DNA from: a phage
NCBI GenBank assembly: GCA_037574385.1
Contig: GCA_037574385.1_4529.1
Reading direction: 5' to 3' (one strand)
Length of the DNA: 64,000 nucleotides
Shown here: positions 5,211-42,282 of the stretch, piece after piece
Position numbering within the stretch: position 1 is the stretch's first letter
Layout: every line of letters begins with the position of its first letter
Position numbers and translations under genes: made by a program
Notes under the pieces: generated by a model
Seen by the model: the letters and a program-made list of their open reading frames with translations, nothing else
The model's database searches: none
Told to the model about the DNA's origin: nothing

Positions 5211-5674
5211 AAAGAGTCTCTTAATAGGTTTAACACATCAATAAATTCAGCTTCAGTTAGTATTGTATCATCTTTTGTTAGGTGGCTGGCCATGCTATGC
5301 TTCAAAATTTTTCCTTTAGAGGCTTGTAAGGCATCGCGAAACCCCTTGTTTTGGATCGCTGCTTCAAAATATGCATTTGTGTATAATTCTTTCCACGCTT
5401 CAGAGTATCTTGAAAATGGAACTCCTAACCAGAAGAGAGTCCCATAGTCCTGAGCTCTTGCATAAGACCTTCCAGCTTGCTGTGCAGCCAATCCAGACAA
5501 CCCAAATATACGTCTTTGATGTTCAACATTTTTCACCTTACATCCTTGGAGAAATCCTTCAAGACCTCCGAATTGAATACCATCCATGACAAAAGGCCAT
5601 TGGGCGAAATTACTTAATGCACATGACGGCCATTTGAAATTACTTCTTATTTCTAATTCAGACATCTTTAACAC
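5207..5674 (-). CDS. NADAR / YbiA-like (DUF1768) domain protein
   Basis: 155 aa; LSNFAQWPFVMDGIQFGGLEGFLQGCKV aligns with E. coli YbiA FSNFAAWPIKVDGKTWPTSEHYFQAQKF; further matches downstream (RRIFGLSGLAAQQAGR). Confidence 0.65.
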   Translation of the reverse strand: MLKMSELEIRSNFKWPSCALSNFAQWPFVMDGIQFGGLEGFLQGCKVKNVEHQRRIFGLSGLAAQQAGRSYARAQDYGTLFWLGVPFSRYSEAWKELYTNAYFEAAIQNKGFRDALQASKGKILKHSMASHLTKDDTILTEAEFIDVLNLLRDSL

Positions 5675-37864: not shown

Positions 37865-38497
37865 TCACAGTACGTTAGTTACAAGGGTAATGATTTCTTT
37901 GGACACATTAGGGAAGTCAATGTAAGTATATTTACCACCGATCTTAATCTTAACATCATTTTCAAGAGAAGTAAACAGCTTTGATTCAGCTTCTGACATG
38001 TTGTATGCAAAGATTCTAAGAGCGCCATCTCGTCGAATTTCAATTTGGCGAATACCTAGAACTCGTTTTGCAAATCGAACTTCCAAGTTACTACGGTTTT
38101 CACCAATTTCTTTAACTTCAACTTTATCTTTAATATTTTCAAAAACAAAGTTTGCTAATTCATGCATTTCAGGAGTAACTCCACGTGCTTTTCTAGTGTT
38201 ACGTTTCTGAAGAAGTTCTGGAGCATTTTCTTGAGCAAATAGGTCTGCAGCTTTTTGGATAATATCCATTGCTTCGCCGGTTGCCACAAGTCCATCACCG
38301 GATTTTTCGACTAAACCTTTCTTAATCAATACACCAATGTTAGAGTTAACAACTGATGCGTTGTATTCTGCTTCCAGAGCTTCACGGACATTGGCAGCAG
38401 TGGTGAAGTTGTTCTTAATGATATAAACCATTATTGCCGCAGTTTTTTCATTCAGAGCGTTTTCAGAAGCTTTGATGATGTAAGTAACTTTAGACAT
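37865..38497 (-). CDS. motA: Middle-transcription activator MotA
   Basis: 210 aa (T4 MotA 211 aa); N-terminus MSKVTYIIKAS..LNEKTA and NSNIGVLIKKGLVEKSGDGL match T4 MotA. Confidence 0.8.
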   Translation of the reverse strand: MSKVTYIIKASENALNEKTAAIMVYIIKNNFTTAANVREALEAEYNASVVNSNIGVLIKKGLVEKSGDGLVATGEAMDIIQKAADLFAQENAPELLQKRNTRKARGVTPEMHELANFVFENIKDKVEVKEIGENRSNLEVRFAKRVLGIRQIEIRRDGALRIFAYNMSEAESKLFTSLENDVKIKIGGKYTYIDFPNVSKEIITLVTNVL

Positions 38498-38686: not shown

Positions 38687-40012
38687 TCAAAGTGCCTCCA
38701 AGTCTTTAGTGTACTCTGTCACAACATCGGTAGACTTCCAATACTCATTTTCTTCTTTCTTAGCTTTAGCTTCTTCTGCTAGTTTACGTGCTTCATCGGA
38801 AGTGATATGGAAGATGTTAAGACCTACCAGTTTATCAACATGTTCTTTATACATTTCGATTTGTGCTAGCTCTTCAGTCAAAGCTTTACGAGTCTTGCCC
38901 TGAATCACAATTTCACCACTGATAACTTTTTTGATGAAGTGTGCCTTAGCAAAAGCAAGTTTAAATGCTTTTTCAGATTCAAGGATTTTGTTGTCAATAC
39001 GTTTCTGAACGTAAGTCTTACGGACTTCAACAAAATCTTTGATTAAGTCTACTACATTATCGTAGACCGCTAATTTACCTTTTTCATTAATCACTGTGAT
39101 GTTTTGTGAACGACGTTCGATGAGACTAAAATCTTTCATGATTTTTTCATGACGTAGCTCTTCATCGTCTGGAAGCGAGTACTCTTTACGGAACTTCACC
39201 TTAAACCCAAATCCATGTTCACCACAATCATCTTCCCATGAGATTAGACCTTTATCTTCTAATGGGTCAAGAACCTTACTCACATACGTTTCACGGTCGA
39301 ATTTATATGGGATTTCAGTTATCTGCATTTGAGTACGAGATGTGAACTTATATGTTCCGTGAATCTCATAACGCCCATCAACTTCATGTACTTCACCACG
39401 GAATTCCGGGAATTCAACTTTTGGCTTAGTGACATTTTTACCTTGAAGAGCTTGTAATACAGCCTTTTTGACTGATTTAAAACTATGAGGCAGAATATTT
39501 GTTGCATAACCGGTTGCAATACCGGAGACACCATTCAAAAGAACTGTCGGAATAATAGGAAGATAGAATTTTGGTGGAATATGTTCTTTATCTTCATGAG
39601 TTGGAGCATATTCGGTATCTTTATAGACATTATAGAAATTTTTGCTTACACGAGCAAAAATATAACGAGATGCCGCAGCTTTTTGGACTGTTCTAGAACC
39701 AAAGTTGCCTTGGCCATCTAACAGTGGATAGTTGTTGTTCCATGTGTTAGCCATTAATGCACCTGCATCTTGTGCAGAAGATTCACCATGGTGATAACCT
39801 AAATCTGCAACACCACCCGCAATTGACGCAAGTTTATGAAATTTTTCTTTATTACCACGAGCCAAATCTAACGCACGATGGACCACAAAACGTTGAACCG
39901 GCTTAAATCCATCAATCATGTTTGGGATTGCACGGTTTTCAACGGTGTACATCGCATATGCTAAGGCTTCGTTATCAATAATACTTTTTAGATTACGAGA
40001 ATTCAATTGCAT
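38687..40012 (-). CDS. 52: DNA topoisomerase II medium subunit gp52 (GyrA-like)
   Basis: 441 aa (T4 gp52 442 aa); GyrA-like N-terminal region; position next to motA. Confidence 0.8.
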   Translation of the reverse strand: MQLNSRNLKSIIDNEALAYAMYTVENRAIPNMIDGFKPVQRFVVHRALDLARGNKEKFHKLASIAGGVADLGYHHGESSAQDAGALMANTWNNNYPLLDGQGNFGSRTVQKAAASRYIFARVSKNFYNVYKDTEYAPTHEDKEHIPPKFYLPIIPTVLLNGVSGIATGYATNILPHSFKSVKKAVLQALQGKNVTKPKVEFPEFRGEVHEVDGRYEIHGTYKFTSRTQMQITEIPYKFDRETYVSKVLDPLEDKGLISWEDDCGEHGFGFKVKFRKEYSLPDDEELRHEKIMKDFSLIERRSQNITVINEKGKLAVYDNVVDLIKDFVEVRKTYVQKRIDNKILESEKAFKLAFAKAHFIKKVISGEIVIQGKTRKALTEELAQIEMYKEHVDKLVGLNIFHITSDEARKLAEEAKAKKEENEYWKSTDVVTEYTKDLEAL

Positions 40013-40016
40013 ATTT

Positions 40017-40157
40017 TCACCATATTAATGAACGAATAACCATTATAACATCTGAAATGAAAAGCACTACTTGGATTAGTCCAAACATCACACCGTAGTA
40101 CAGAACCGTAAGCAACAACAAGAGCCCGAAGGCTCCTGTTAAGATTTTCTTAATCAT
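40017..40157 (-). CDS. Small hydrophobic membrane peptide (46 aa)
   Basis: Hand-called: MIKKILTGAFGLLLLLTVLYYGVMFGLIQVVLFISDVIMVIRSLIW; start overlaps stop of the upstream small ORF (TAATG). It contains a UUCG hairpin in its coding sequence, so it may instead be non-coding. Confidence 0.35.
   Translation of the reverse strand: MIKKILTGAFGLLLLLTVLYYGVMFGLIQVVLFISDVIMVIRSLIW
40122..40135 (-). terminator. UUCG-tetraloop hairpin (lies within candidate small ORF)
   Basis: GAGCC-UUCG-GGCUC on - strand. Confidence 0.35.
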
Positions 40158-40303
40158 TACTCGCCTTTTAATACGTTAAGAAGAGCTAAGACTGCTAAGG
40201 TACCTTGTGATACGGCCTGTTGAAATACTGTTGTTTCGCCCGTAACTAAAGTGTTAACGAATAAAAACGACCAACACAGCAATGCAATAATCCATGCTAC
40301 CAT
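40157..40303 (-). CDS. Small hydrophobic membrane protein (48 aa), ac-like by size and position
   Basis: Hand-called: MVAWIIALLCWSFLFVNTLVTGETTVFQQAVSQGTLAVLALLNVLKGE; SD GAGGT upstream; T4 has the small membrane gene ac between ndd and 52. Confidence 0.45.
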   Translation of the reverse strand: MVAWIIALLCWSFLFVNTLVTGETTVFQQAVSQGTLAVLALLNVLKGE

Positions 40304-40355
40304 TTTAATTACCTCAAAAATAAATTAAAGGCCTAACTTAATAGGTCCGTATAAA

Positions 40356-40802
40356 TTAGTAACTCTGCAGAATGAATTTGAAATTATCAGCCAGAAGACG
40401 GTTCATTTCAGTGAGTGTTTGATATTCTGACGTATGGTTGCGAGTGAATGCCAGAGCCAATTGACCTTTACCATAACCAGTGGTCAGTGGTTTCATGTTC
40501 TTAGCTGCAACAAAGATTACATCATATTCAATATTGTTAGTGCCCATGGTACGGGCTAGTTGCGAACGGCCTTGACGAATGTGAGAAAGAATTGCATCCA
40601 ACCCTTGTTTAGAACGTTGACGTCCTACAAAGAATCGTGCTGCTACTTGACGCCAATCAGATGAACCTTTAACAAAGAAGTAAAAACCTTCACGAGAACG
40701 AAACTCTTTAGAAACTTCAGAACCATATTCACCATTACGAACTACTGCAACAACTTCACCGCCAACTGCCAGAAGGTCTTTACGAGTTAAATATTTGGTC
40801 AT
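40356..40802 (-). CDS. ndd: Nucleoid disruption protein Ndd
   Basis: 148 aa (T4 Ndd about 151 aa); C-terminal region ([28 protein letters not shown]) matches recollection of T4 Ndd; position near gene 52. Confidence 0.65.
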
Positions 40803-40846
40803 GCTAATTTCCTCAATTGATTAATGTTTTTGTAATCCATGAGAGC

Positions 40847-40876
40847 ATTATACTCTGCTCTCAAGAGTTTGTACAA
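40847..40876 (-). promoter_or_regulatory. Early promoter module upstream of ndd
   Basis: TTGTACAAACTCTTGAGAGCAGAGTATAATGCTCTC; GAGAGC/GCTCTC flank the -10. Confidence 0.55.
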
Positions 40877-40878
40877 TT

Positions 40879-41078
40879 TTATTCGGTCATATCAGAACGT
40901 TCAAAAAGCTCTTCAACAGTTAAACATTCGGTGTCATCCTCAATAAAGAATCGGGTCCAACACGTTGGGGCGATGCAGTTATGAGTTTGTCCAGCTATAG
41001 AAGCTACACGAATAAGCTGCTGACCATTATTCAGGACAAATTTTTCACCAATTTCAACATCTTTAAAAAGCTTAGCCA
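40879..41078 (-). CDS. Hypothetical protein
   Basis: Tracked ORF 40879..41139 uses a TTG start through the promoter; probable start MAKLFKDVEIG after SD GAGGAA (about 66 aa). Confidence 0.4.
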
Positions 41079-41139
41079 TTTTGTATTCCTCATGTTTAAG
41101 TAGGACTACTATACCATAATCATACCGTGATGTAAACAA

Positions 41140-41250
41140 TTAAATTACATTAAAATATGTTAAAGCCAACCATGTTCCAGTGAACGAACATGCAATGTAA
41201 AAAACCGTATCACAAATTGTTTTTAGTACAATAAGAAGTGCATTTTTCAT
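41140..41250 (-). CDS. Small hydrophobic peptide (36 aa)
   Basis: Hand-called: MKNALLIVLKTICDTVFYIACSFTGTWLALTYFNVI; start overlaps upstream stop (ATGA coupling). Confidence 0.4.
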   Translation of the reverse strand: MKNALLIVLKTICDTVFYIACSFTGTWLALTYFNVI

Positions 41251-41333
41251 AAGTACCTCAATGCAATTGAAAATATTATACAAATCATAGGGATACTAAG
41301 CAACCATATTCCGATCCACATTTTAGAGCTCAT
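41247..41333 (-). CDS. Small hydrophobic peptide (28 aa)
   Basis: Hand-called: MSSKMWIGIWLLSIPMICIIFSIALRYL; ATG overlaps stop of 41330..41593 (ATGA coupling). Confidence 0.4.
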   Translation of the reverse strand: MSSKMWIGIWLLSIPMICIIFSIALRYL

Positions 41334-41593
41334 ATCTCAACTTCCGCGAGTTCCATATATCCTTTGCTGATAACCTCTTTAAGGTCTTTAGAAAGAATAA
41401 CATCAAAATGGTCGTTCATATGTCCATTAACCAGACGAGTTATTTCGGCTTCAGATGACATATAAGGCACGTCTGAGTCCCAATGAGATAGACCTAAATG
41501 GGTATAAATCATCCCTTCGTCGTCTGCGGTGTTGTACATTGAAACAAACTCACCTGTCACTTTATGTTTTGCGTAGAAAAATTTAAATTTCAT
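41330..41593 (-). CDS. Hypothetical protein
   Basis: 87-aa ORF. Confidence 0.5.
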   Translation of the reverse strand: MKFKFFYAKHKVTGEFVSMYNTADDEGMIYTHLGLSHWDSDVPYMSSEAEITRLVNGHMNDHFDVILSKDLKEVISKGYMELAEVEI

Positions 41594-41661
41594 GATGTTA
41601 TCCTCTTTTAGATAGGACTACTGTATCATAGTCCTACTTAGTTGTAAACACTTTTATGAAA

Positions 41662-42282
41662 TTAAAGTTGAAGATACCACCCGTTGTAGTTGCTCTTGCG
41701 GACGATTTTCTTTAGGTCTTCATGGTCTCCCACGAACTTTATAGAATAAGAGAAGACGTCAGGTGAGGTTTCTTTGACATTCAATATAATAATACAGTCT
41801 GCAACTCGATGATTCAGGAATGGCCCTATGTTGATTCCGTTGCCACCCGGATAATCACCACTGTATCCTGTGGTAACAGAAATCCATTTAGAATCCATCT
41901 GATGTGTCTTGACTTCTACACGAATTCCACAATATTTAGGATGGGCTAACACGTCCCATGCATATGTGTACGGGTCTTCTACGTCTTCATTACCTTTATT
42001 AACATATCCGTCTAGCCAATTTGCTACTACATACTCTGCAAAGACTGCAACCTTACAACGTCGAACTACATCTTCTTTGTTTTGGTCTGGATTTTGGCTC
42101 AATGAATATCGAGCAGTGTCAGCAATCTTCACCTTCATTTCACTAGTCAAAAACTCATTCGACAGGATAAATGTCGGAAGATTCTTCAGTCTCAATAGTC
42201 CCAAGTTCGTCTTTACCATAGATACCTCTGATGTGTAGTTCGCCAAAATAAATGCGGTCTCCTTCTTCAAGATAGTTAGCAT
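41662..42282 (-). CDS. Putative PD-(D/E)xK-type nuclease; positional candidate for endonuclease IV (denB)
   Basis: Contains D...EVK (AWDVLAHPKYCGIRVEVKTH); sits between ndd and rIIB where T4 has denB. Start uncertain: the tracked start overlaps the upstream gene and internal Mets are possible. Confidence 0.4.
   Translation of the reverse strand: MLTILKKETAFILANYTSEVSMVKTNLGLLRLKNLPTFILSNEFLTSEMKVKIADTARYSLSQNPDQNKEDVVRRCKVAVFAEYVVANWLDGYVNKGNEDVEDPYTYAWDVLAHPKYCGIRVEVKTHQMDSKWISVTTGYSGDYPGGNGINIGPFLNHRVADCIIILNVKETSPDVFSYSIKFVGDHEDLKKIVRKSNYNGWYLQL

What the first reader, a model, noticed from the sequence alone, without database searches (positions are those of the whole stretch)
40017..41333. 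Four unannotated small hydrophobic peptide genes (28-48 aa) flanking ndd, with ATGA-type start/stop coupling
The ORF track (60-aa minimum) misses two small TM-peptide ORFs between gene 52 and ndd and two more chained by overlapping stop/start codons downstream of the 87-aa gene at 41330-41593. T4 carries small membrane genes (ac, stp) in the same neighbourhood. One candidate (40017-40157) also contains a UUCG hairpin, so it may be RNA rather than coding.
Basis: seen in the sequence. Interest (0 to 1): 0.5.

Follow-up and report, generated by a model that had tools for sequence, protein, structure and literature searches.

The report
Known T4-type small membrane peptide genes
The four small hydrophobic reading frames are real genes, but they are already-known T4-family early membrane-peptide genes (52.1, ac, an ndd.6 homologue and a Mosigvirus-specific neighbour), and the UUCG hairpin is a conserved RNA element embedded inside the coding gene 52.1, not a replacement for it.

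Summary
The window is a Mosigvirus (RB69/JS09-like T-even phage). All four ORFs exist on the minus strand as described.

- **40017-40157** is the gp52.1 orthologue (Pfam DUF7396).
- **40157-40303** is Ac, identical to RB69 Ac.
- **41247-41333** belongs to the T4 ndd.6 family.
- **41140-41250** (36 aa from ATG, not 47 aa from TTG) is a Mosigvirus-only family, PHROG 18561.

The ndd.6 homologue is, however, annotated in just 1 of 13 Mosigvirus records I inspected.

Coding is strongly supported for 52.1, Ac and ndd.6 by cross-genus frame, length and start conservation, with pN well below pS. Support for ORF-C is moderate.

The UUCG hairpin is real. It is far more stable than synonymous recoding allows (z = -5) and uses rare GC-rich codons. 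A hairpin of different sequence sits at the same place in 52.1 in most Tevenvirinae lineages tested, and three records mark it as a terminator. The 3' half of 52.1 also carries the MotA-dependent middle promoter P52 and the ribosome-binding site of gene 52.

Verdict: ordinary and already known, with a tidy case of coding and regulatory overlap.

The parts
40017..40157 (-). ORF-A: gene 52.1 orthologue, a 46-aa hydrophobic peptide. It ends 4 nt before the gene 52 start (40012).
   Evidence: Pfam DUF7396 at 79.6 bits against a cutoff of 27, E 1.9e-22. PHROG 3595, the same family as T4 gp52.1. tblastn finds it in 888 phage records. It is 46 aa in Mosig-, Tequatro-, Dhaka-, Gapriver-, Jiaoda- and Klebsiella-phage lineages. 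Against T4: pN 0.19, pS 0.72. Invariant residues: K3 K4 L19 Y20 Y21 G22 V31-D36 I38 S43 L44 W46.
40117..40140 (-). UUCG-tetraloop hairpin inside codons 6-14 of 52.1 (AACAGGAGCC-UUCG-GGCUCUUGUU), followed by a U-rich tract. It looks like an intrinsic terminator.
   Evidence: MFE is -17.4 kcal/mol against -5.9 +/- 2.3 for synonymous recodings, z = -5.0. The stem uses rare codons: GCC is 12% of Ala, GGG 6% of Gly, CTC 5% of Leu. The same position is annotated as an ARNold terminator in ATK47 and in Tequatrovirus D5505. Hairpins of different sequence sit at the same place in other genera. There is no Rfam match.
40042..40069 (-). MotA-dependent middle promoter of gene 52 (P52 homologue) inside codons 30-39 of 52.1. 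MotA-box core TGCTT at 40062-40066, a 12-bp spacer, then -10 TATAAT at 40042-40047. The predicted start site is about 40035.
   Evidence: Seen in the sequence. Codon V31 is GTG in 40/40 and L32 is CTT in 39/40 unique genes, while other invariant residues use 2-5 codons. T4 P52 has its start site at 165227, inside T4 52.1 (165209-165349) (PMC2988021 Table 1). The consensus box and 12 +/- 1 spacing come. A 'predicted middle promoter' is annotated at the same place in Yersinia phage fPS-2.
40157..40303 (-). ORF-B: ac (acridine sensitivity/resistance locus), a 48-aa membrane peptide. Its stop TAA overlaps the 52.1 ATG by 1 nt.
   Evidence: The exact sequence equals RB69 Ac AAP76166.1. PHROG 2501, the same family as T4 Ac. 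BLASTP against T4 Ac gives 37% identity, E 2e-7. Within-Mosigvirus pN/pS is 0.22. A conserved core motif runs across genera. A GAGGT Shine-Dalgarno lies 8 nt upstream.
40318..40347 (-). Terminator-like hairpin plus U-tract between ndd and ac.
   Evidence: ARNold terminators are annotated at the homologous place in ATK47, PhAPEC2 and WFbE185. The sequence GGACCUAUUAAGUUAGGCC followed by UUUAAUUUAUUUUU is visible.
40356..40802 (-). ndd (nucleoid disruption protein), the context gene between the two peptide pairs. Its early-type promoter is at 40847-40875.
   Evidence: 58.7% identity to T4 Ndd by tblastn. Annotations. Promoter scan.
41140..41250 (-). ORF-C: a 36-aa hydrophobic peptide starting at the ATG that overlaps the ORF-D stop (ATGA). 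It is specific to Mosigvirus.
   Evidence: PHROG 18561, E 2.4e-27. tblastn finds it in 153 records, all Escherichia/Shigella/Enterobacteria-phage or Mosigvirus names as in the DNA search, and 152 of them are intact. A GAGGT Shine-Dalgarno lies 6 nt upstream, and the ATGA coupling is conserved. pN/pS is 0.36 against 0.8-2.2 in shifted frames. Variants have an in-frame 3-nt deletion; one record (PECP20) has a T6-to-T5 frameshift. There is no similarity to T4 ndd.5.
41247..41333 (-). ORF-D: a 28-aa single-helix peptide of the T4 ndd.6 family. Its start overlaps the stop of the 87-aa gene (ATGA).
   Evidence: PHROG 8851, the same family as T4 Ndd.6. tblastn finds it in 758 records. It is 27-29 aa (mostly 28-29) in six genera, with ATG, TTG and GTG starts and Shine-Dalgarno sequences retained. 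At intermediate distances pN is 0.10-0.17 and pS 0.64-0.78, while shifted frames give about 1 or more.
41330..41593 (-). RB69ORF270c-like 87-aa gene, the first gene of the early operon ORF270c -> D -> C. Its early-type promoter is at 41620-41648.
   Evidence: Annotations. PHROG 2390. Promoter scan. The ORF270c-then-ndd.6 order is conserved in Tequatro-, Dhaka- and Gaprivervirus-type loci.

Best explanation
The region carries four genuine small membrane-peptide genes of a T-even (Mosigvirus) phage. They lie in two translationally coupled chains.

**Chain 1.** An early sigma70-type promoter at 41620-41648 drives ORF270c-like, then D (ndd.6 family, 28 aa), then C (Mosigvirus-specific, 36 aa). Each start codon overlaps the preceding stop as ATGA.

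**Chain 2.** The ndd promoter at 40847-40875 drives ndd, a leaky terminator-like hairpin, ac (48 aa) and then 52.1 (46 aa), whose start overlaps the ac stop.

**How the peptides most likely work (inferred).** Each peptide is little more than one or two hydrophobic helices. Each most likely inserts into the host inner membrane within minutes of infection.
- Ac is the locus whose loss makes T4 resistant to acriflavine. Current work proposes that it impairs AcrAB-TolC efflux.
- The other three peptides probably act the same general way, by binding or perturbing host envelope proteins. Their targets are unknown.

**Gene 52.1 is also a regulatory platform for gene 52.**
- Codons 6-14 form a selected UUCG hairpin with a U-rich tail. 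I read it as an intrinsic terminator or attenuator that ends or stabilises the early ndd-ac transcript (about 45% for terminator, about 35% for a pure stability or processing element).
- Codons 30-39 contain the MotA-dependent middle promoter P52.
- The last codons contain the gene 52 Shine-Dalgarno sequence.

**Shown:** ORF conservation, purifying selection, family membership, excess hairpin stability, promoter motif conservation.

**Inferred:** translation in this phage, membrane insertion, early timing, terminator activity.
For: - **Identity of the window.** It is 97% identical to Mosigvirus genomes over 1.8 kb.
- **Family hits.** A: DUF7396 and PHROG 3595. B: PHROG 2501. C: PHROG 18561. 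D: PHROG 8851. T4 gp52.1, Ac and Ndd.6 fall in the same PHROGs as A, B and D.
- **Already deposited.** All four exact sequences are in NCBI; B equals RB69 Ac.
- **Selection on A.** Codons 20-46 against T4 give pN 0.06 and pS 0.65.
- **Selection on D.** For example Gelderland- against Gapriver-type: pN 0.10, pS 0.78, with ATG/TTG/GTG start switching.
- **Within Mosigvirus.** pN/pS is 0.42, 0.22, 0.36 and 0.11 for A-D. Shifted frames give 0.74 or higher (mostly 0.8-2.2; undefined in two cases where pS was 0).
- **Hydropathy.** All four are far above random ORFs.
- **Promoters.** Early-type promoters sit upstream of ORF270c-like, ndd.1 and ndd.
- **Expression in T4.** Transcripts of 52.1, ac and ndd.2-ndd.6 are classed as early (PMC9697503 Table S2).
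- **Ac phenotype and model.** bioRxiv 10.1101/2025.06.30.662393 and PMC13250531.
- **Hairpin.** z = -5.0 against synonymous recoding. It is significant (p <= 0.033) in 9 of 12 lineages. The 3' half of the gene shows no excess in 11 of 12.
- **Hairpin is specific to A.** Only A of the four ORFs has excess structure.
- **Covariation.** Helix 2 of the T4-like group is 100% paired with two compensatory pairs.
- **Independent annotation.** ARNold terminator calls appear in two genera.
- **P52.**
- **MotA is present.** A 210-aa ORF at 37865-38497 sits at the position annotated motA in relatives.
Against: - No direct evidence of translation exists for any of the four peptides. In T4 the 52.1, Ac and Ndd.2-6 proteins were not detected by mass spectrometry (Class_P = NA). 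That is expected for tiny hydrophobic peptides, but it is still a gap.
- ORF-C is confined to one genus of about 95-99% identical genomes. Its pN/pS of 0.36 rests on about 15 variable sites, and one record carries a frameshift.
- Cross-genus pN/pS for Ac is only 0.45-0.87 at saturating distances.
- The tool's own terminator scan did not call the 52.1 hairpin, because the U-tract criterion was not met once the stem is fully extended.
- Excess stability was not significant in 3 of 12 lineages.
- AlphaFold2 on the single sequence gives one continuous helix of 44 residues for 52.1. That does not resolve the topology.
Confidence: 0.85

Rival explanations
1. 40017-40157 is not a protein-coding gene. 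It would be only a regulatory stretch (terminator hairpin, P52 promoter and the gene 52 leader) that happens to stay open.
For: Almost every part of the 141 nt has a plausible non-coding role: the hairpin, the MotA box and -10 with invariant synonymous sites, and the gene 52 Shine-Dalgarno in the last codons. The protein was not detected in T4 proteomics. Several records leave the ORF unannotated.
Against: The frame is open with an ATG start and a length of 45-46 codons in every genus sampled, despite 32-40% nucleotide divergence from the window's copy. Synonymous sites are near saturation (pS about 0.65-0.78) while pN is 0.05-0.10 in codons 20-46 between Mosig-, Tequatro-, Dhaka- and Gapriver-type phages. 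Invariant residues such as Y20, Y21, G22, F33 and S35 use 2-3 different codons. The start is always coupled to the ac stop by a 1-, 4- or 8-nt overlap.
Confidence: 0.04
2. ORF-C (41140-41250) is a chance or decaying open frame in the spacer between ndd.6 and the ndd.1 promoter, not a functional gene.
For: It is found only in Mosigvirus (153 records). It has no detectable homologue in T4 or other genera and no similarity to ndd.5. Few substitutions are available, so pN/pS of 0.36 is weakly determined. PECP20 carries a frameshift. RB69, ATK47 and PhAPEC2 do not annotate it.
Against: It is intact in 152 of 153 records. A strong GAGGT Shine-Dalgarno at optimal spacing and the ATGA coupling are conserved in all intact copies. 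The only length variants are in-frame. It is strongly hydrophobic, like its neighbours. T4 has a different small hydrophobic gene (ndd.5) in exactly the same ATGA-coupled slot. It has a PHROG family.
Confidence: 0.2
3. The hairpin in 52.1 is not a transcription terminator. It would be an mRNA stability or processing element (a 3' barrier for the ndd-ac message, or a shield against RNase E or RegB), or a modulator of 52.1 translation.
For: The U-tract is interrupted (UUGUUGUUGCUU), and the in-house scan did not call a terminator. The stem starts only 16 nt after the 52.1 start codon, where structure can affect initiation. C(UUCG)G hairpins in T4 messages are classically linked to RNA stability (my recollection of Tuerk et al. 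1988, not checked here).
Against: ARNold scored it as a terminator in independent annotations of two genera. In every lineage the hairpin lies just upstream of the P52 promoter, the place where an early transcript would be expected to end before a separately regulated middle gene.
Confidence: 0.35

Closest known systems
T4 gp52.1 (NP_049876; Pfam DUF7396; RB69 NP_861956)
   Same: It is 46 aa and lies immediately upstream of topoisomerase gene 52. It is 72% identical to T4 and 91% to RB69. The invariant LYYG and VLFISD motifs are present. It overlaps the P52 promoter.
   Different: The N-terminal third differs from T4. It encodes one 11-bp UUCG hairpin instead of T4's two shorter hairpins.
T4/RB69 Ac (acridine resistance locus; NP_049877, AAP76166)
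   Same: It is identical to RB69 Ac, belongs to the same PHROG as T4 Ac, and sits between ndd and 52.1. It has an N-terminal hydrophobic helix and the polar SV..QA.SQG core.
   Different: It is only 37% identical to T4 Ac and is 48 rather than 51 aa. There is no stp gene between ndd and ac. The overlap with 52.1 is 1 nt rather than 8 nt. The acridine phenotype has not been tested for the Mosigvirus version.
T4 Ndd.6 (NP_049886; PHROG 8851)
   Same: It is 28 aa and 50% identical. It shares MSS..W...W.(I/L)SIP.IC. It starts with an ATGA overlap and is followed by another ATGA-coupled small hydrophobic gene.
   Different: In the window it follows a full ORF270c-like gene that T4 itself lacks. The 'outer membrane protein' label in T4 and PHROG is only a prediction; a single 20-residue hydrophobic helix fits the inner membrane better.
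T4 Ndd.5 (NP_049885; PHROG 5011)
   Same: It occupies the same slot as ORF-C: directly after ndd.6, ATGA-coupled, 32-36 aa, hydrophobic, starting MK.
   Different: There is no detectable sequence similarity, and the PHROG family differs (18561 against 5011). This is a positional analogue, not a demonstrated homologue.
T4 middle promoter P52 (Hinton 2010, Table 1)
   Same: A TGCTT MotA-box core, a 12-bp spacer and a TAnnnT -10 sit at the same codons of 52.1. The predicted start aligns with the T4 start site at 165227.
   Different: The -10 is a perfect TATAAT here (TATTAT in T4). The positions flanking the box core deviate from the 9-mer consensus. There is no experimental mapping in Mosigvirus.
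E. coli AcrZ-type small membrane regulators of AcrB (recalled from memory, a lead only)
   Same: A roughly 50-aa single-pass inner-membrane peptide that modulates an efflux pump. This is the mode of action now proposed for Ac.
   Different: No sequence relationship was tested or is claimed. AcrZ is a host protein that tunes AcrB, whereas Ac is proposed to impair it.

Membership tests
gp52.1 / DUF7396 | Match to the Pfam DUF7396 profile above the gathering score | tested here: met
   79.6 bits against a cutoff of 27, full length 1-46/46
gp52.1 / DUF7396 | A 46-aa ORF immediately upstream of topoisomerase gene 52, coupled to the ac stop | tested here: met
   A 4-nt gap to gene 52 and a 1-nt overlap with ac. 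T4, RB69, Dhaka-, Gapriver- and Klebsiella-phage records show the same layout.
Ac (acridine resistance locus) | Sequence homology to T4 Ac | tested here: met
   PHROG 2501 for both proteins. BLASTP gives 37% identity, E 2e-7. The sequence is identical to RB69 Ac.
Ac (acridine resistance locus) | Loss of the gene confers acriflavine resistance on the phage | not testable with these tools
   The phenotype is known for T4 and T2 only.
Ndd.6 (PHROG 8851) | Profile match and a conserved 28-29-aa architecture with the W..xW..SIP.IC motif | tested here: met
   E 1.9e-10, 1-28/28. Alignment across six genera.
Ndd.6 (PHROG 8851) | Outer-membrane location, as the family label says | not testable with these tools
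   The label is a computational prediction carried over from the T4 annotation. It was not verified.
Ndd.5 (PHROG 5011), considered for ORF-C | Sequence homology to T4 Ndd.5 | tested here: not met
   BLASTP finds no alignment at E <= 100. The PHROG families differ. tblastn of ndd.5 on the window finds nothing significant.
Intrinsic (Rho-independent) terminator, for the 52.1 hairpin | A GC-rich stem-loop directly followed by a U-tract | tested here: inconclusive
   An 11-bp stem of -17 kcal/mol with the tail UUGUUGUU/GCUU. ARNold calls it in related records, but the in-house scan does not.
Intrinsic (Rho-independent) terminator, for the 52.1 hairpin | Transcripts actually end there | not testable with these tools
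   No 3'-end mapping data were available.
MotA-dependent middle promoter | A MotA box (core TGCTT) 12 +/- 1 bp upstream of a TAnnnT -10 | tested here: met
   TGCTT at 40062-40066, a 12-bp spacer and TATAAT at 40042-40047. Consensus from PMC2988021. Synonymous sites in the box are invariant.
MotA-dependent middle promoter | A MotA/AsiA-dependent transcription start | not testable with these tools
   It is mapped in T4 only (start 165227). A motA-position ORF is present in the window.

The most novel reading that the evidence does not exclude
Gene 52.1 may be a dual-use element conserved across Tevenvirinae. Its N-terminal hairpin would be a ribosome-sensitive attenuator: when ribosomes re-initiating from ac translate 52.1, the stem is melted and early transcription reads through into topoisomerase gene 52. 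Otherwise the transcript ends, and gene 52 waits for the MotA promoter embedded further along the same ORF. The strictly conserved pairing of 52.1 with gene 52 could also reflect a functional link between the peptide and the phage topoisomerase; I recall the T4 enzyme being reported as membrane-associated, which was not checked here.
Probability: 0.15. Interest if true: 0.4.

Novelty: already known. Interest (0 to 1): 0.15.

Why it matters
For genome annotation the practical points are small.
- The ndd.6-family gene is usually missed. It was annotated in 1 of 13 Mosigvirus records inspected, and it is unannotated in the Dhaka-, Gapriver-, Kanagawa- and Gelderlandvirus records I looked at.
- The labels 'acridine resistance' and 'nucleoid disruption' are sometimes attached to the wrong small ORF.

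Biologically, the region is a compact example of overlapping codes. A 46-codon membrane-peptide gene simultaneously carries a selected RNA hairpin, a middle promoter and the next gene's ribosome-binding site. It shows that a strong RNA structure inside a short ORF is not evidence against coding.

The functions of 52.1, ndd.6 and ORF-C remain open. They are conserved early membrane peptides and reasonable candidates for host-envelope takeover factors.

Tried and rejected
- **IMG/VR scan with Ndd.** It returned only 3 near-identical loci. I replaced it with a scan using a gp52.1 alignment (26 loci) and with GenBank phage records.
- **Literature search for ndd.5, ndd.6 and gp52.1.** It returned only neurodevelopmental-disorder papers.
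- **The T4 genome review PMC150520.** It is not held.
- **A general search for T4 ribosome profiling or small proteins.** It found nothing on T4.
- **Rfam at E <= 1.** Nothing on the region.
- **NCBIfam.** No family for any of the four peptides.
- **ORF-C as a diverged ndd.5.** Rejected.
- **stp and ndd.2/2a/3/4/5 homologues in the window.** None found.
- **The second TGCTT at nt 43 of 52.1, just after the hairpin, as a MotA box.** Rejected. It is absent from many close relatives and lacks a properly spaced -10, whereas the TGCTT at nt 91 is near-universal.
- **The 47-aa TTG-start version of ORF-C.** Rejected in favour of the 36-aa ATG start, which has the Shine-Dalgarno and the conserved ATGA coupling and is the one annotated in GenBank.
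- **AlphaFold2 of gp52.1 without an alignment.** It gave a single long helix with high pLDDT, which does not resolve the topology. I did not search folds with it.
- **One script timed out.** It was rerun.
Full report
**What the window is**

Positions 39900-41700 match 172 phage records. Of these, 153 match at 95-99% identity over the full length, and all are Mosigvirus or RB69/JS09-like T-even phages. All genes in this stretch lie on the minus strand. In transcription order they are rIIB, an ORF272c-like gene, denB, an ORF270c-like gene, D, C, ndd.1, ndd, B, A, gene 52 and motA.

**Check of the observation**

| ORF | Coordinates (minus strand) | Length |
|---|---|---|
| A | 40017-40157 | 46 aa |
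| B | 40157-40303 | 48 aa |
| D | 41247-41333 | 28 aa |
| C | 41140-41250 | 36 aa from ATG |

- The mechanical ORF list extends C to an upstream TTG, giving 47 aa. The ATG is the better start: it has a GAGGT Shine-Dalgarno 6 nt upstream, it overlaps the D stop as ATGA, and it is the start used in GenBank.
- The ORF270c-like/D and D/C junctions are ATGA overlaps.
- The B/A junction is TAATG, a 1-nt overlap. It becomes ATGA in JS09-type variants.
- The peptides are far more hydrophobic than random short ORFs of the same window. GRAVY is 1.2-1.8 against 0.19 +/- 0.65.
- The UUCG hairpin is at 40122-40135 (core) and 40117-40140 (full stem).

**Identity of the ORFs**

- **A** hits Pfam DUF7396 at 79.6 bits (cutoff 27) and PHROG 3595.
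- **B** hits PHROG 2501.
- **C** hits PHROG 18561.
- **D** hits PHROG 8851.
- T4 gp52.1, Ac and Ndd.6 fall in the same PHROGs as A, B and D. T4 Ndd.5, which occupies C's slot, is in a different family (PHROG 5011) and shows no similarity to C.
- The T4 record shows the same layout: 52, 52.1, ac, stp, ndd, ndd.1, then ndd.2 to ndd.6.
- The window has no stp and no ndd.2-ndd.5 homologues.
- RB69 has annotated A as gp52.1 and B as Ac.
- An exact-sequence look-up finds all four peptides in NCBI. B is identical to RB69 Ac AAP76166. D exists only as three accessions.
- In the 13 annotated Mosigvirus records I opened, A is annotated in 10, B in 12, C in 9 and D in 1.

So 'unannotated' is an artefact of the 60-aa ORF track, although D is a real and common annotation gap.

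**Are they coding?**

*ORF-A.*
- tblastn finds it in 888 records.
- The frame is 46 codons (45 in Kanagawavirus types), with an ATG start, in every genus sampled.
- Against T4, nucleotide identity is 68%, pN is 0.19 and pS is 0.72. In codons 20-46, pN is 0.06 and pS is 0.65.
- This is unambiguous protein-level purifying selection.

*ORF-D.*
- It is found in 758 records.
- Homologues of 27-29 aa (mostly 28-29) occur in Mosig-, Tequatro-, Dhaka-, Gapriver-, Kanagawa- and Gelderlandvirus-type loci.
- They start with ATG, TTG or GTG behind conserved Shine-Dalgarno sequences.
- At intermediate distances pN is 0.10-0.17 and pS is 0.64-0.78. Shifted frames give ratios of about 1 or more.

*ORF-B.*
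- It has 283 records and a conserved central motif across genera.
- It evolves fast: pN/pS is 0.45-0.87 at saturating distances and 0.22 within Mosigvirus.

*ORF-C.*
- It is confined to 153 Mosigvirus-type records and is intact in 152.
- pN/pS is 0.36 on few sites.
- The length variants are in-frame.
- One record, PECP20, has a homopolymer frameshift.
- I rate C as probably real (about 0.8) and the other three as essentially certain.

*Direct evidence is lacking.* In T4, the 52.1, ac and ndd.2-ndd.6 transcripts are classed as early, but the proteins were not detected by mass spectrometry (PMC9697503 Table S2).

**The hairpin**

The hairpin itself, however, is a selected feature.

- Codons 5-22 of A fold at -17.4 kcal/mol. 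One thousand recodings that keep the protein and the phage's codon usage give -5.9 +/- 2.3, so z = -5.0.
- The same test is significant in 9 of 12 lineages. In 11 of 12, codons 23-46 show no excess.
- The stem uses rare codons: GCC, GGG and CTC.
- Of the four ORFs, only A has excess structure.
- Other genera carry hairpins of quite different sequence at the same codons.
- In the T4-like group there are two hairpins. The second is paired in 100% of cells and has two compensatory pairs among 14 sequences.
- Independent annotators marked the site as an ARNold terminator in ATK47 (Mosigvirus) and D5505 (Tequatrovirus).
- Rfam has nothing there.

**The promoter inside 52.1**

- Codons 31-32 are GTG CTT in 40/40 and 39/40 unique genes. 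Other invariant residues use several codons.
- The DNA reads TGCTT, 12 bp, TATAAT (40066-40042 on the minus strand).
- This fits the MotA-box and -10 geometry given by Hinton 2010: box 12 +/- 1 bp from the -10.
- Hinton's Table 1 lists a mapped T4 middle promoter, P52. Its start site is printed as 65227. I read this as 165227, which lies inside T4 52.1 (165209-165349) at the position homologous to about 40035 here.
- Yersinia phage fPS-2 annotates a predicted middle promoter at the same place.
- The final codons of 52.1 (TGG TGA) also supply the GGTGA Shine-Dalgarno of gene 52.

Gene 52.1 is therefore a coding sequence overlaid with a hairpin, a promoter and a ribosome-binding site.

**How it most likely works**

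Early-type promoters lie at 41620-41648, 41108-41136 and 40847-40875. They define two units.

1. ORF270c-like, D and C, linked by ATGA overlaps.
2. ndd, a terminator-like hairpin at about 40318-40347, then ac and 52.1.

I infer that all four peptides are made within minutes of infection and insert into the inner membrane.

- For Ac, the phenotype is known in T4: the gene makes the phage sensitive to acriflavine. The current proposal is interference with AcrAB-TolC efflux.
- For 52.1, ndd.6 and C, no function is known. I commit to host-envelope-protein modulation as the likeliest class of action, with low certainty about targets.
- The hairpin most likely ends or stabilises the early ndd-ac message just upstream of P52.

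AlphaFold2 on the single 52.1 sequence predicts one 44-residue helix. That does not settle whether the invariant YYG is a turn.

**Verdict**

They are, however, known T4-family genes, so novelty is nil and interest is low. The one modestly interesting point is the conserved coding/regulatory overlap in 52.1.

Noticed in passing
window 41662-42219 (denB), versus the commonly annotated 41662-42138: Related records disagree on the denB start: 477 nt in RB69, JS09, phage 55 and ATK47, against 558 nt in PhAPEC2 and ESh27. The residues gained with the longer start (MVKTNLGLLRLKNLPTFILSN...) align with the N-terminus of T4 DenB (MQKTNPGLQRLFQIPTFTLSN...). The 185-aa form is therefore probably correct, and it overlaps the upstream ORF272c-like gene by 65 nt.
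   Followed up: partly
L018 375-464, L019 726-815, L022 ~236-316, L023 2501-2590: Intact ndd.6-family ORFs (TTG, GTG or ATG starts with Shine-Dalgarno sequences) are present but unannotated in phages dhaeg, PSD2001, Kosakonia 305 and STML-198. Each sits directly after the ORF270c-like or equivalent gene.
   Followed up: yes
L004 (T4) about 5497-5603; L026, L029-L032: T4 itself has no detectable ORF270c homologue between denB and ndd.6 (a 106-nt gap), while other Tequatrovirus-type loci have one at about 67% identity. The sequence just upstream of T4 ndd.6 still reads ...KIAEIEL* with the ATGA overlap. This may mean a deletion in T4 left the last codons behind; I did not test that.
   Followed up: partly
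L012 (PECP20) about 2001-2107; L032 946-1200: There are two apparent frameshifts in small ORFs of deposited genomes. In PECP20, a T6-to-T5 change in a homopolymer breaks ORF-C. In L032, the ndd.6 frame runs on into an 80-aa fusion. These could be sequencing errors or real pseudogenes.
   Followed up: no
window 41613-41636: A perfect 8-bp inverted repeat, TAGGACTA-N8-TAGTCCTA, overlaps the -10 and start region of the early-type promoter upstream of the ORF270c-like gene. A half-copy (GTAGGACTAC) sits at the equivalent place of the ndd.1 promoter, about 41101-41110. Its role is unknown.
   Followed up: no
search hits H41-H43, H48, H56; H86, H90: Product names are misplaced in public records. Several Tequatrovirus records list only 'acridine resistance protein' under the 52.1 match, which may mean the label sits on 52.1; I did not open those records. 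In phages F27 and F31, Ac is labelled 'nuclear disruption protein'.
   Followed up: no
L019, L027, L035, L040, L041, L046, 20-60 nt after the ndd.6 homologue: In Dhaka-, Gapriver- and Kanagawa-type loci, ndd.6 is followed by an early-type promoter and an ndd.4-like peptide (MKKLLKAIWN...), not by ORF-C or ndd.5. The small-peptide cluster is highly plastic around a conserved ndd.6.
   Followed up: partly
window 41171-41192: The terminator scan flagged a 7-bp hairpin with tail GUUGGCUUUA inside ORF-C, just upstream of the ndd.1 promoter. ORF-C shows no excess structure against synonymous recoding (z = 0.0), so this may be chance.
   Followed up: partly
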